Source of the DNA: Escherichia phage PMBT57
Sequence record: MG770228.1
DNA: 64,000 nucleotides
Reading direction: 5' to 3' (one strand)
Positions within the stretch are counted from its first letter, which is position 1. Each line of letters begins with the position of its first letter. The notes under the pieces are model-generated. The model was given only the letters and a program-made list of their open reading frames with translations, was not told the origin of the DNA and made no database searches. The position numbers were made by a program, and so were the translations under genes. Shown piece by piece: positions 41,010 through 42,945 of this stretch.

Positions 41010-41225
41010 ATGGAACAGTTAAACTACGGTTATAAGATTAAACGCAATCAAGTAAGAGGTTCTTGGTTATTTCTCGTTTATGGTAAACCAATCTATGAAT
41101 TACATCGTGGAGAGAAATCCAAGACCTATTACGTAACTCATATTGCTACAGGAAAAACTCCTGCATGTGCAGGATTGCTTCGTGATGCAATTATGAAAGC
41201 ATGTATGTTAGAAGGACTTCTATGA
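41010..41225 (+). CDS. hypothetical protein, 71 aa
   Basis: ORF track; RBS ggaagg. Confidence 0.5.
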   Translation: MEQLNYGYKIKRNQVRGSWLFLVYGKPIYELHRGEKSKTYYVTHIATGKTPACAGLLRDAIMKACMLEGLL

Positions 41226-41536
41226 ACCAAATCATTGCTATCCCGCAGCATAAAGCTCGTATTGCTGACAGGAATATTCGTATTCATTATCCAATGCCTT
41301 TGAGTAATCCATTTCAGAAAAATGAGAGAACCACGGATGAAGATATAGCAGCAGCTTATGAGGCATATCTTCGTAACCGTTTGGTAAGTGGTGACAAGCT
41401 CATTACGGCTGAAATGGAACGAATTGCTAAATTCGTTATGGATACTACTGACAAACCAGTTGGCCTCATCGGTAATGAACTGGAAGTGAATGTAATCCGT
41501 AAGATTATTATGGAGGCTCTTAATGGGAATCAGTGA
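41222..41536 (+). CDS. hypothetical protein with partial DUF4326-like N-terminal motif
   Basis: LSNPF and AAYEAYLRNRL motifs resemble the N-terminal half of DUF4326; lacks the Cys/His cluster. Confidence 0.45.
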   Translation: MNQIIAIPQHKARIADRNIRIHYPMPLSNPFQKNERTTDEDIAAAYEAYLRNRLVSGDKLITAEMERIAKFVMDTTDKPVGLIGNELEVNVIRKIIMEALNGNQ

Positions 41537-41699
41537 ATCCCAGGCTATGGCTATTAAACAGTTAGCCTTCAACTGCCTTAGTGCTATGAAGGCATTTAAT
41601 GAAGCAAAAACTTTCCCTGACCAGAATAAAGCTCGTATTCAACTTTATCAGTCTAAGAAAGATTTTGAAGAATATCTGGAAAGTATTACGGTGAAATAA
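41523..41699 (+). CDS. small ORF, 58 aa
   Basis: ATG overlapping upstream stop; below ORF-track cutoff. Confidence 0.3.
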   Translation: MGISESQAMAIKQLAFNCLSAMKAFNEAKTFPDQNKARIQLYQSKKDFEEYLESITVK

Positions 41700-42019
41700 T
41701 GAAAACAATATTAATTGTTCATGATGCTGATTTTAATGATGTTGATAAAATGATGCGTAATATTGATTATGTAGCTCAGACAACTCCAGCATTTAAAGAA
41801 GAATTTACTCTATATTGTGATGCTAATTCACCATTAGTTCCCATTCTGAAAAAAGCTGGTTTACCCTTCTCTACAGATAATTTCCCTGAAGAACCTGATT
41901 ATGTAATTTCATTTATTTATGACTTACATGACGGTTCAGAACCGAGTGAATTGGCTATGAGTCAATGGAAATCCAGAAGACCCGTATATGCATTTCAGGT
42001 AGTTAAATCAAGGGGTTAA
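41699..42019 (+). CDS. hypothetical protein, 106 aa
   Basis: ORF track. Confidence 0.5.
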   Translation: MKTILIVHDADFNDVDKMMRNIDYVAQTTPAFKEEFTLYCDANSPLVPILKKAGLPFSTDNFPEEPDYVISFIYDLHDGSEPSELAMSQWKSRRPVYAFQVVKSRG

Positions 42020-42021
42020 CT

Positions 42022-42390
42022 ATGTTAGGTGATAACACTAATGCTCTGTTTGGGGTGTCAGCCAGACCCATTATCATTGTTAATAAACATCATGGTAAGA
42101 AAGGTGAATATATTGGGCGTGGTTCTCCTCTGGGTAATCCATTCGTTATTGGTAAAGATGGAACCAGAGAAGAAGTAATTGCCAAATATAAAGTATGGCT
42201 GCAAGAACAGATTGATAAAGGTAATCCAGATGTACTGGATGAATTAAATCGTCTTGGTAATAAAGCCATTGATGAAAAAGGATTAGCTTTACAGTGCTTC
42301 TGTTATCCAAAACCTTGTCATGGCGAGGTTATTAAAGAGAAGTTAGTGAAAGCTATGTATAACTATTTTGTGGAAAATCCTAATGGATAA
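42022..42390 (+). CDS. DUF4326-like protein
   Basis: YIGRGSPLGNPF, KYKVWL and CFCYPKPCHGEVI match recalled DUF4326 hallmarks. Confidence 0.55.
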   Translation: MLGDNTNALFGVSARPIIIVNKHHGKKGEYIGRGSPLGNPFVIGKDGTREEVIAKYKVWLQEQIDKGNPDVLDELNRLGNKAIDEKGLALQCFCYPKPCHGEVIKEKLVKAMYNYFVENPNG

Positions 42391-42568
42391 ACAATGCAAA
42401 TGTGGTAAAGGCTATGTATCCCAATGGGATGGTAAATGTGGTCATTGTAGAACCAAGAAAGAACAACGTGACCATGAATATGCACTTCAGGAAATGATTG
42501 TACCTGTTGAGAATTTAGGTATGGCTCCACTTGAGGCTTACAAATACATAAGGAGATTATGCAAATGA
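42383..42568 (+). CDS. small Cys-rich zinc-ribbon-like protein
   Basis: CKCGKGYVSQWDGKCGHC; ATG overlapping upstream gene end. Confidence 0.45.
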   Translation: MDKQCKCGKGYVSQWDGKCGHCRTKKEQRDHEYALQEMIVPVENLGMAPLEAYKYIRRLCK

Positions 42569-42945
42569 AAGAAGTATTCGTATTTGGTTCTAACCTTGCT
42601 GGTGTACATGGTGCAGGTGCTGCAAAGACAGCATATAAGAAACATGGAGCCAGATGGGGTAAAGGGCATGGTCATTACGGTGACAGCTATGCCATTCCCA
42701 CTAAAGATACCAATATCAAAACGATGACTATTGAAGACATTCGTACATTTGTAAACGCCTTCATTGTCTATGCTGCTAATCATCCAGAACTTAACTTTAA
42801 AGTTACTCGTGTAGGTTGTGGATTAGCTGGTATTGATGATTCTGTTATGGCCTCTATGTTTGAAAATGCCACTGATAACTGTTCCTTTGACTTAGCATGG
42901 AAAAGTTACTTAGGGGATGATTTCAACTACTGGGGAACGTTCTAA
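42565..42945 (+). CDS. hypothetical protein with Gly-rich nucleotide-binding-like motifs
   Basis: FVFGSNLAGVHGAGAA and RVGCGLAGIDD; RBS aaggag 9 nt upstream of ATG 42565. Confidence 0.5.
   Translation: MKEVFVFGSNLAGVHGAGAAKTAYKKHGARWGKGHGHYGDSYAIPTKDTNIKTMTIEDIRTFVNAFIVYAANHPELNFKVTRVGCGLAGIDDSVMASMFENATDNCSFDLAWKSYLGDDFNYWGTF

What the first reader, a model, noticed from the sequence alone, without database searches (positions are those of the whole stretch)
41222..42945. Early-region cluster: DUF4326-like proteins, a zinc-ribbon mini-protein and a Gly-rich nucleotide-binding-like protein
ORF 42022-42390 carries YIGRGSPLGNPF and CFCYPKPCHGEVI, which match DUF4326 as I recall it. ORF 41222-41536 shares only the N-terminal NPF / YEAYL part. 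They are followed by a CxC...CxxC mini-protein and a 126-aa protein with GSNLAGVHGAGAA and GCGLAGIDD motifs reminiscent of Rossmann-like (SLOG/DprA-type) nucleotide-binding loops. DUF4326 is often linked to ADP-ribose/NAD-derivative processing domains, so this could be a nucleotide-signal processing or anti-defence module. The function is inference only.
Basis: inference. Interest (0 to 1): 0.6.

Follow-up and report, generated by a model that had tools for sequence, protein, structure and literature searches.

The report
Phage N4 early ADP-ribose-processing gene cluster
These are early genes gp9 to gp14 of coliphage N4, in which a DUF4326 enzyme, its small zinc-ribbon partner and a minimal macrodomain (not a SLOG/DprA domain) probably form an ADP-ribose-removing counter-defence module that databases already partly annotate but nobody has tested.

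Summary
The window is an N4-species phage, 98-99% identical to N4. The finding covers N4 early genes gp9 to gp14, between the replication inhibitor gp8 and the RNAPII genes gp15/gp16. All quoted motifs are present.

- **gp12** is a clear DUF4326 protein (Pfam E 6.6e-23). Its model resembles the RapZ C-terminal domain and then Cys-phosphatases.
- **gp9** is a full-length DUF4326 paralogue (hhalign 98.6%) that has lost the GR and CxCxPxxCH motifs.
- **gp13** has a zinc ribbon that occurs fused to DUF4326 in other proteins.

Fusions (gp14-type macro+DUF4326, DarG-macro+DUF4326, NADAR+DUF4326, SLOG+DUF4326, SLOG+gp14-type macro) and adjacency in an unrelated phage tie gp12, gp13 and gp14 together. 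gp10 and gp11 stay unknown.

The ADP-ribose theme is supported and the Rossmann/SLOG call is wrong. GenBank already carries these annotations, and Iyer, Burroughs and Aravind described the DUF4326 association. This is a new member of a known kind with an untested function.

The parts
41222..41536 (+). gp9: a full-length but degenerate DUF4326 paralogue. It keeps PLSNPF and Y..YL but lacks the GR and CxCxPxxCH motifs, so it is predicted to be catalytically inactive. An alternative ATG start lies at 41201.
   Evidence: Pfam DUF4326 scores 22.1 bits, below the cut-off of 25. PHROG 464, the same family as gp12, matches at 5e-19. hhalign of the gp9 family against the DUF4326 family gives probability 98.6%, E 5.5e-16, over 101 columns. 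The alignment shows a 4-residue deletion and loss of C92, C94, C99 and H100.
41523..41699 (+). gp10: a 58-aa protein of unknown function.
   Evidence: It matches only PHROG 35919, with no Pfam, NCBIfam or PADLOC hit. A homologue was found in only 1 of 80 gp14-containing loci.
41699..42019 (+). gp11: a 106-aa protein of unknown function. It lies directly upstream of gp12 in the E. coli-type N4-like phages.
   Evidence: It matches PHROG 7827 and has no Pfam hit, including across its family. hhalign against SLOG gives probability 1.6%. A weak PDB hit to RppH at E 0.011 is probably chance. Homologues occur in 12 of 80 loci.
42022..42390 (+). gp12: a DUF4326 enzyme domain. It has a strand-loop-helix 'P-loop' with C92-x-C94-x-P96-x-x-C99-H100, plus the conserved R33, N39 and P40.
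42383..42568 (+). gp13: a zinc-ribbon mini-protein (CxC-x11-CxxC), the likely partner of gp12.
   Evidence: It matches PHROG 13804. Its N-terminal 30-38 residues match the N-termini of the DUF4326 proteins P0279, P0284, P0303, P0319 and P0335 at E 1e-9 to 1e-14. The same fusion occurs in L043 3978-4433.
42559..42945 (+). gp14: a minimal macrodomain of the DarG/TARG1/Poa1p type. It has ADP-ribose loops GSNxxGxHGAGAA and GCGLAG and the putative catalytic lysine K49 in IPTK.
41010..41225 (+). Context: gp8, the N4 host-DNA-replication inhibitor, whose stop overlaps the gp9 start.
   Evidence: Pfam PF25713 N4_GP8 matches at E 1.1e-18. It is N4 gp8 by synteny.
40939..40964 (+). Context: an intrinsic-terminator-like hairpin plus T-run between gp7 and gp8.
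   Evidence: Found by the terminator scan. A terminator is annotated at the same place in phage AL25.
42963..42979 (+). Context: a perfect 7-bp stem / 3-nt loop hairpin (AAGCTGC-TCC-GCAGCTT) between gp14 and gp15. It is a candidate vRNAP hairpin promoter P3.
   Evidence: Found in the hairpin scan, which also found two similar hairpins upstream of gp1 and gp2. N4 vRNAP uses ssDNA hairpin promoters and transcribes gp1, gp2, gp15 and gp16 (PMC13434306).
43020..45091 (+). Context: gp15 and gp16, the two subunits of N4 RNAPII. They lie directly downstream of gp14 in most Schitoviridae.
   Evidence: PHROG 2166 and 2051 and Pfam RNA_pol match. gp15 lies downstream of the gp14 homologue in 51 of 74 loci that have room for it, with a median gap of 231 nt.

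Best explanation
gp12, gp13 and gp14, with gp9 as a degenerate paralogue, form an early-expressed module that removes or degrades ADP-ribose adducts or ADP-ribose-derived molecules made by host defences.

Shown here:
- gp14 has a macrodomain fold with both ADP-ribose-binding loops and a near-invariant lysine at the position of the catalytic lysine of TARG1 and DarG.
- gp12 is a DUF4326 domain with a Cys-phosphatase-like strand-loop-helix pocket, most similar to the sugar-phosphate-binding RapZ C-terminal domain.
- The gp13 zinc ribbon and the gp14-type macrodomain each occur fused to DUF4326 elsewhere.

Inferred:
- The genes are transcribed in the first minutes of infection by the injected virion RNA polymerase.
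- gp14 cleaves ADP-ribose from a macromolecule. DarT-type ADP-ribosylated single-stranded DNA is the most attractive target, because N4 early transcription depends on extruded ssDNA hairpins. Alternatively it processes a small ADP-ribose derivative.
- gp12, held or targeted by gp13, uses C92 and R33 to remove a phosphate attached to a ribose in the same substrate or in its breakdown product.
- gp9 has lost the Cys/His motif and acts only as a binder or regulator.
For: Identity and setting: the region is 98-99% identical to N4 gp8-gp15. The genes are packed with overlapping stops and starts.

gp14 as a macrodomain:
- The family profile's best PDB sequence hit is TARG1. IPTK aligns on LITK84 and RIGCGL on RIGCGL.
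- In 73 distinct homologues S11, N12, H17, G20, A21, A22, P47, T48, G86 and G88 are invariant, and K49 is present in 70 of 73.

gp12:
- Pfam DUF4326 E 6.6e-23.
- R33, N39, P40, C92, C94, P96 and C99 are conserved.

Functional coupling:
- P0299 is a gp14-type macro (E 5.5e-36) fused to DUF4326.
- P0289 is a DarG macrodomain (PADLOC DarG E 2.6e-66) fused to DUF4326.
- NADAR+DUF4326 occurs three times, plus L051 inside an N4-like early region. SLOG+DUF4326 occurs six times.
- L068 is SLOG fused to a gp14-type macro.
- The gp13 ribbon is fused to DUF4326 in six proteins.
- In the non-N4-like contig L077, DUF4326 lies 63 nt upstream of a gp14 homologue.
- DUF4326 lies within 6 kb in 29 of 80 gp14 loci. 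It occurs in 1189 of 50,697 phage records overall.

Precedents:
- Phage orphan NADAR (AdfN) and macrodomain (T4 AdfM) proteins erase DarT marks (PMC11825919; bioRxiv 2025.11.20.689424).
- DUF4326 was predicted to process phosphates on ribose in ADPr derivatives (PMC9503650; PMC7824862).
Against: - No biochemical or genetic data on N4 gp9-gp14 were found.
- gp14 does not reach any Pfam Macro model or the PADLOC DarG model. Its sequence match to TARG1 is not significant on its own (E 0.5).
- The TARG1 catalytic aspartate is replaced by alanine in 72 of 73 homologues.
- Only 36% of gp14 loci carry DUF4326 nearby, and that enrichment is confounded by shared ancestry among N4-like phages.
- gp14 is much more tightly linked to the RNAPII genes than to gp12.
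- Three terminator-like hairpins lie between the early promoters and gp8-gp14, so expression timing is inferred from position only.
- The substrate is unknown. In large phages many DUF4326 genes sit next to ribonucleotide reductase genes, which points towards nucleotide metabolism.
Confidence: 0.5

Rival explanations
1. Housekeeping or nucleotide metabolism rather than counter-defence. In this view gp12 is a sugar-phosphate or nucleotide phosphatase of the T4 NrdA.1 type. gp14 is a Poa1p-like ADP-ribose-1''-phosphate phosphatase or O-acyl-ADPr deacylase that clears by-products of RNA repair or NAD metabolism during infection.
Against: N4 has no RNR gene next to gp12. The fusion partners of DUF4326 are ADPr-erasing or ADPr-sensing domains (DarG macro, NADAR, SLOG), not nucleotide-synthesis enzymes. 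The position in the very early, fast-evolving region beside the host-shutoff gene gp8 is typical of host-takeover and anti-defence genes.
Confidence: 0.2
2. There is no module. The genes are independent accessory early genes that are adjacent because the N4 early region accumulates small genes. On this view gp14's real partner is the phage RNAPII (gp15/gp16) or transcription, not gp12.
For: gp15 lies directly downstream of the gp14 homologue in 51 of 74 loci, with a median gap of 231 nt. DUF4326 is present in only 29 of 80 loci, the gp13 ribbon in 12 and gp11 in 12. In roseophages the gp14 homologue sits elsewhere in the genome (H48).
Against: gp14-type macro+DUF4326 and zinc ribbon+DUF4326 exist as single polypeptides. 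DUF4326 and gp14 are adjacent in a non-N4-like phage. No known role links a macrodomain to single-subunit RNA polymerases.
Confidence: 0.2
3. One reading: gp14 is a SLOG/DprA-type Rossmann nucleotide-binding protein that senses or sequesters nucleotide signals.
For: It has Gly-rich loops. SLOG domains really do occur fused to DUF4326 and to gp14-type domains (L068). A SLOG-like anti-Avs protein, ORF83, has DUF4326-fused relatives (bioRxiv 2025.06.06.658234).
Confidence: 0.03
4. gp14 reverses or tunes ADP-ribosylation carried out by a phage-encoded ADP-ribosyltransferase, giving a writer/eraser pair as proposed for some jumbo phages.
For: An 'N4-like' ART family is listed among the common viral ARTs (PMC9503650). 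Macro, NADAR and Nudix domains are often fused to NAD-using domains in jumbo phages (PMC7824862).
Against: No ART domain was found in the ten other uncharacterised window proteins scanned. None is annotated in the parts of the N4 RefSeq record I read, positions 1-30,000. The rest of the genome was not scanned exhaustively.
Confidence: 0.05

Closest known systems
DarG macrodomain (antitoxin of DarTG2) and the phage orphan DarG-like erasers (T4 AdfM/Tk.4, chimallivirus DarG2-like protein)
   Different: gp14 is about 25 residues shorter. It does not hit the PADLOC DarG or Pfam Macro models, has no DarT-binding domain, shares only 16% identity, and its substrate is untested.
TARG1 / OARD1 (C6orf130), human terminal ADP-ribose glycohydrolase
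   Same: It is the best PDB sequence hit of the family profile and a top structural hit. K49 aligns with the catalytic K84. The GAGxA and RIGCGL loops are shared.
   Different: The second catalytic residue, D125, is alanine in gp14. The sequence E-value of 0.5 is not significant alone.
[quoted passage not shown]
   Different: RapZ-CTD binds an sRNA and a sugar phosphate and is not known to be catalytic. gp12 has a CxCxPxxCH motif instead of the CX5R loop of true phosphatases. Whether those cysteines are catalytic or bind zinc is unknown.
T4 NrdA.1 and other phage DUF4326 proteins
   Same: They belong to the same Pfam and PHROG family. They are small stand-alone phage proteins of unknown function.
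   Different: The T4-type genes sit beside RNR genes. The N4 gene sits in the vRNAP-transcribed early region, next to a zinc ribbon and a macrodomain.
AdfN (phage NADAR anti-DarTG1) and ORF83 (SLOG-like anti-Avs protein)
   Same: Their domain families (NADAR, SLOG) are the commonest fusion partners of DUF4326. Both are proven or reported anti-defence proteins.
   Different: Neither domain is present in this window. The analogy is by association only.

Membership tests
DUF4326 (PF14216): gp12 | Scores above the Pfam gathering threshold. | tested here: met
   81.6 bits against a cut-off of 25, E 6.6e-23, covering profile positions 4-82 of 82.
DUF4326 (PF14216): gp12 | Conserved G-R-G-S-P-L-G-N-P-F and L-x-C-x-C-x-P-x-x-C-H motifs. 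| tested here: met
   R33, L37, N39, P40, C92, C94, P96 and C99 are conserved in at least 90% of 55 diverse sequences and are present in gp12.
DUF4326 (PF14216): gp9 | Scores above the Pfam gathering threshold. | tested here: not met
   22.1 bits against a cut-off of 25. Homology is nevertheless clear from profile-profile comparison (98.6%, E 5.5e-16) and from PHROG 464.
DUF4326 (PF14216): gp9 | Conserved Arg and the Cys/His motif. | tested here: not met
   GR is replaced by H-Y-P, and CxCxPxxCH is deleted or replaced across the whole gp9 family.
Rhodanese-phosphatase superfamily (RapZ-C/DUF488/DUF4326 clade): gp12 | Rossmannoid fold with a strand, Cys-containing loop and helix forming the active-site pocket. 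| tested here: met
Rhodanese-phosphatase superfamily: gp12 | Cys-dependent phosphate or thio-transfer activity. | not testable with these tools
   This needs an enzyme assay with a C92S control.
Macrodomain: gp14 | Three-layer alpha/beta/alpha macro fold. | tested here: met
Macrodomain: gp14 | Match to a curated Macro sequence model (Pfam PF01661 and relatives). | tested here: not met
   No Pfam Macro hit at E up to 1 and no PADLOC DarG hit at E up to 10. The family is covered only by NCBIfam NF049995, 'A1S_2505 family phage non-structural protein'.
Macrodomain: gp14 | The two Gly-rich ADP-ribose/diphosphate-binding loops. | tested here: met
   GSNxxGxHGAGAA (residues 10-22) and GCGLAG (86-91) are invariant or nearly so in 73 homologues. 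They align to the TARG1 loops.
TARG1/DarG-type (lysine) ADP-ribosyl hydrolases: gp14 | Catalytic lysine (TARG1 K84, DarG K80). | tested here: met
   K49 aligns with TARG1 K84 in the profile alignment and is present in 70 of 73 homologues. The alignment itself is weak (E 0.5) and no superposition of coordinates was available.
TARG1/DarG-type (lysine) ADP-ribosyl hydrolases: gp14 | TARG1 second catalytic residue D125. | tested here: not met
   The aligned position is A90, which is alanine in 72 of 73 homologues. From my own knowledge, DarG also lacks this aspartate.
TARG1/DarG-type ADP-ribosyl hydrolases: gp14 | ADP-ribose binding and hydrolase activity. | not testable with these tools
   This needs a binding and hydrolysis assay.
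SLOG / DprA-type Rossmann domains: gp14 and gp11 | SLOG fold or profile match. | tested here: not met
   For gp14, no SLOG, LOG or DprA structure appears among the listed structural matches and there is no Pfam hit. For gp11, hhalign against six YAcAr SLOG domains gives probability 1.6% and there is no Pfam hit.

The most novel reading that the evidence does not exclude
The gp14-type minimal macrodomain is a nearly universal early gene of Schitoviridae, kept next to the RNAPII genes. On this reading it protects the single-stranded hairpin promoters and ssDNA templates that N4-type transcription depends on from DarT-like ADP-ribosylation of ssDNA. DUF4326 with its zinc ribbon would be a new Cys-dependent enzyme that completes the repair by removing a phospho-ribose remnant or a terminal phosphate from the nucleic acid. 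That would make this a two-step 'ADP-ribose excision' pathway.
Probability: 0.12. Interest if true: 0.7.

Novelty: new member of a known kind. Interest (0 to 1): 0.4.

Why it matters
N4 is a classic model phage, yet its early genes gp9-gp14 have no assigned function. Placing gp14 as a DarG/TARG1-type macrodomain gives concrete, cheap experiments: K49A and C92S mutants, and plating on DarTG, CmdTAC and Thoeris hosts. So does tying gp14 by gene fusions to DUF4326 and a zinc ribbon.

DUF4326 is a large family without any tested activity. It has 6108 clusters at 50% identity and occurs in about 2% of sequenced phages, including T4 NrdA.1. N4 would be a tractable system for finding that activity.

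If the module erases ADP-ribose marks, it adds a third domain class to the known phage anti-DarT erasers, NADAR and macro. It would also explain why this macrodomain is kept in hundreds of N4-like phages.

Tried and rejected
- **PDB sequence searches with single proteins.** gp14 and gp12 gave nothing significant. The DUF4326 profile also finds no solved relative by sequence; the best hit, an HAD phosphatase at E 0.007, aligns a helical stretch only.
- **gp11 as a degenerate SLOG domain.** I suspected this by eye, but hhalign gave probability 1.6%. Pfam on eight family members found nothing. A weak PDB hit to B. subtilis RppH residues 92-153 (E 0.011) lies outside the Nudix box and I treat it as chance.
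- **PADLOC.** No hit for any of the six window proteins.
- **Search for a phage ADP-ribosyltransferase partner.** Ten other uncharacterised window proteins gave only ThyX and HTH hits. The N4 RefSeq annotation lists none.
- **Long gp14 ORFs.** The 209-241-aa versions in L017, L023, L027, L028, L032, L033, L045 and L082 have N-terminal extensions with no detectable domain. They may be start-codon artefacts of my mechanical ORF calling. Only L068 is a convincing fusion.
- **Literature on function or essentiality of N4 gp9-gp14.** Searches found nothing.
- **Burroughs and Aravind 2023.** This rhodanese-phosphatase paper is not held and is cited from memory only.
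Full report
**Where we are**

The 2.2 kb around the finding is 98-99% identical to coliphage N4 and its close relatives SPSP, AL25, VEc25 and Bas69/AlfredRasser. By synteny with the N4 RefSeq record the interval 41222-42945 contains N4 genes gp9, gp10, gp11, gp12, gp13 and gp14. Upstream lies gp8 (41010-41225), which matches Pfam N4_GP8, 'Bacteriophage N4 DNA replication inhibitor', at E 1.1e-18. Downstream lie gp15 and gp16 (43020-45091), the two subunits of the phage RNAPII.

The genes are packed with overlapping stop and start codons. 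A strong terminator-like hairpin sits between gp7 and gp8 (40939-40964). A perfect 7-bp-stem, 3-nt-loop hairpin sits between gp14 and gp15 (42963-42979). It resembles two others found just upstream of gp1 and gp2 (38507-38519 and 38974-38990). These fit the hairpin promoters used by the injected virion RNA polymerase, which is reported to transcribe gp1, gp2, gp15 and gp16 (PMC13434306). So the cluster lies inside the early region. Its early expression is inferred from position and was not shown here.

**Check of the observation**

Every quoted motif is present at the stated coordinates.

**gp12**

gp12 is a clear DUF4326 protein, with Pfam 81.6 bits against a cut-off of 25 and E 6.6e-23. An exhaustive search finds 6108 representatives at 50% identity. 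An alignment of 50 diverse members shows near-invariant R33, L37, N39, P40, Y56, L90, C92, C94, P96 and C99, usually followed by His.

[quoted passage not shown] As I recall, it also agrees with the 'RapZ-C-DUF488-DUF4326 clade' of Burroughs and Aravind 2023. That paper is not held in the library. Weak Pfam DUF488-N3a hits are consistent with it.

**gp9**

Pfam scores gp9 just under threshold, 22.1 against 25 bits. However, it falls in the same PHROG as gp12 at 5e-19. It matches several DUF4326 representatives almost end to end at E about 1e-12. A profile-profile comparison of its family against the DUF4326 family gives 98.6% probability, E 5.5e-16, over 101 columns.

So gp9 is a whole-domain paralogue, not an N-terminal fragment. 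Its entire family lacks the GR dipeptide and has a four-residue deletion that removes C92, C94, C99 and H100. The family is small, 38 clusters, all from N4-like contigs. I read it as a catalytically dead copy.

**gp13**

The CxC-x11-CxxC ribbon of gp13 is not an orphan. Its first 30-38 residues match the N-termini of five of the 150 best gp12 relatives (P0279, the top hit, plus P0284, P0303, P0319 and P0335) at E 1e-9 to 1e-14. In each of them the ribbon precedes a DUF4326 domain. The same fusion occurs in an N4-like phage 1.5 kb upstream of its gp14 homologue (L043). This is gene-fusion evidence that gp13 works with gp12.

**gp14**

The family is very large, with at least 8000 clusters at 90% identity. 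It has no Pfam model but is NCBIfam NF049995. The AlphaFold model has pLDDT 88.9 and pTM 0.85.

Independently, the family profile's best PDB sequence hit is TARG1. At E 0.5 this is not significant alone. The alignment puts A-I-P-T-K49 on L-I-T-K84 and R-V-G-C-G-L-A90 on R-I-G-C-G-L-D125. K84 and D125 are the catalytic residues of TARG1 (my own knowledge; Sharifi et al. 2013).

In 73 distinct homologues S11, N12, G15, H17, G20, A21, A22, P47, T48, G86 and G88 are invariant. K49 is present in 70 of 73 and A90 in 72 of 73. gp14 therefore keeps both ADP-ribose loops and the lysine but not the TARG1 aspartate. As I recall, DarG shows the same pattern.

Some GenBank submitters already call this gene 'macrodomain protein' (Bas69) or 'ADP-ribosylglycohydrolase' (AL25, KP8).

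**Are the genes functionally linked?**

Twenty of the longer proteins among gp12's 150 best relatives were scanned:
- six carry a SLOG domain (YAcAr or YpsA);
- three carry NADAR;
- one carries a Pfam Macro domain;
- one carries a 3'-5' exonuclease domain.

The Macro-containing protein, P0289, matches the PADLOC DarG model at E 2.6e-66 and has the FPTKRHW motif. P0299 is a gp14-type domain (E 5.5e-36) fused to DUF4326. L068 is SLOG fused to a gp14-type domain, and L051 is NADAR+DUF4326 in an N4-like early region. In L077, a GC-rich non-N4-like contig, a DUF4326 gene lies 63 nt upstream of a gp14 homologue.

Among 80 IMG/VR loci fetched with the gp14 profile, DUF4326 lies within 6 kb in 29, always on the same strand. 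The background is 1189 of 50,697 phage records. This enrichment is inflated by shared ancestry, so I weight the fusions more.

The strongest neighbour of gp14 is not gp12 but the RNAPII gene gp15. It lies downstream in 51 of 74 loci with room, at a median gap of 231 nt. gp14 was not counted among the 14 strict core genes of N4-like phages (PMC4193335). It is nevertheless present in 458 phage records, mostly Schitoviridae of many hosts.

**gp10 and gp11**

Both remain unknown. gp11 looked by eye like a degenerate SLOG domain, but hhalign gives 1.6% probability and Pfam finds nothing. A weak RppH hit at E 0.011 is probably chance. gp11 homologues occur in 12 of the 80 loci and gp10 in one.

**Mechanism**

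The best-supported reading is an early ADP-ribose-processing module. gp14 would bind ADP-ribose and use K49 to release it from a macromolecule or to process a small ADPr derivative. gp12, partnered by gp13, would act on a ribose-linked phosphate in the same pathway. gp9 would be a non-catalytic binder.

The precedents are the phage orphan erasers AdfN (NADAR, anti-DarTG1; PMC11825919) and AdfM (T4 Tk.4 macrodomain, anti-DarTG2; bioRxiv 2025.11.20.689424). A SLOG-like anti-Avs protein, ORF83, has viral relatives that carry DUF4326 (bioRxiv 2025.06.06.658234).

DarT-type ssDNA ADP-ribosylation is an attractive target, because N4 early transcription needs extruded ssDNA hairpins. This step is speculation. 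The fold and family assignments are well supported. The substrate, the enzymatic activity, the timing of expression and the counter-defence role are all inferred. I put 0.5 on the module explanation.

The main rivals are:
- a housekeeping or nucleotide-metabolism role, suggested by nrdA.1-type neighbourhoods in large phages;
- 'no module', with gp14 tied to RNAPII instead.

**Novelty**

The sequences are those of a phage sequenced long ago. RefSeq already labels gp12 as DUF4326, and some records label gp14 as a macrodomain. The association of DUF4326 with Macro, SLOG and NADAR domains has been published as a computational prediction.

The contributions made here are:
- the correction of gp14 from SLOG to macrodomain;
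- the recognition of gp9 as a dead full-length paralogue;
- the gp13 ribbon-DUF4326 and gp14-type macro-DUF4326 fusions;
- the structural link of gp12 to RapZ-CTD;
- the gp14-RNAPII synteny.

This is a new member of a known kind, with moderate interest, because N4 offers a clean system to assign a first activity to DUF4326.

Noticed in passing
window 38507-38519, 38974-38990, 42963-42979: There are three perfect hairpins with 3-nt loops: GTTGC-TTC-GCAAC, AAGAAGC-TCC-GCTTCTT and AAGCTGC-TCC-GCAGCTT. Each is followed by TT-rich/GG sequence. They lie just upstream of gp1, gp2 and gp15, and are candidates for the N4 virion-RNAP hairpin promoters P1, P2 and P3.
   Followed up: partly
window 38910-38929, 39496-39517, 40939-40964, 45097-45122: Strong intrinsic-terminator-like hairpins lie after gp1, gp2, gp7 and gp16. 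The scan found 13 such sites against 5.0 +/- 2.5 in shuffles. Early transcripts must read through three of them to reach gp8-gp14.
   Followed up: no
L004-L083 (IMG/VR loci); window 42559-43829: The gp14-type macrodomain gene sits directly upstream of the RNAPII small-subunit gene gp15 in 51 of 74 loci with enough downstream sequence, at a median gap of 231 nt. This holds even in distant Schitoviridae, where gp15 matches only at E 1e-23 to 1e-30. I have no explanation for this tight synteny.
   Followed up: partly
window 41699-42487: Between N4 (Enquatrovirus) and G7C-like Gamaleyaviruses, only the gp11-gp12 block of this region is still found by megablast, at 81-83% nucleotide identity. The 120 nearest gp12 clusters are all 88-95% identical in protein. 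The corresponding figures are 56-97% for gp14 and 62-99% for gp9. Either this block is under unusually strong constraint or it was exchanged recently.
   Followed up: no
L068 5647-6369; L051 4062-4934; L024 3739-4695; L036 8-871: Other phages carry different combinations at the same kind of locus. L068 has SLOG (YAcAr, E 7e-11) fused to a gp14-type macro. L051 has NADAR fused to DUF4326. L024 and L036 have DUF4326 followed by a C-terminal domain of about 190 aa with DprA/SLOG-looking motifs (GIGSRQTP, GFADGADKAF, GSGGTGQAIRIA) but no Pfam hit.
   Followed up: partly
phage records: Some product names look wrong. DUF4326 genes are called 'ribonucleotide reductase NrdA-like' or 'DNA repair protein', apparently from the T4 gene name nrdA.1. 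The gp14 homologue of Rhodobacter phage RcWhiteOak is called 'ADP-ribosyltransferase', although it belongs to the macrodomain (eraser) family.
   Followed up: partly
window 41699-42019 (gp11): The gp11 family profile gives a weak hit to the C-terminal part of the B. subtilis RNA pyrophosphohydrolase RppH (residues 92-153, E 0.011), outside the Nudix box. It is probably chance, but a Nudix-related fold would fit the ADP-ribose theme.
   Followed up: no
window ~38418: By offset from the N4 record (N4 position 2593 corresponds to window 41010), N4 genome coordinate 1 maps to about window 38418. The window therefore runs across the junction of the linear genome's ends, meaning the assembly is circularly permuted, as in the AL25 and Jura records.
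   Followed up: no
L023, L027, L028 at 5707-6369; L045 at 5704-6378: gp14 homologues in a group of roughly 75-kb phages lie in ORFs of 220-224 aa. These have a conserved N-terminal extension of about 95 aa (MKTWWINRDPETHAYLPECRS...) with no Pfam hit. In these phages gp15/gp16 lie upstream rather than downstream. I could not tell whether this is a real fusion or an upstream start-codon artefact.
   Followed up: partly
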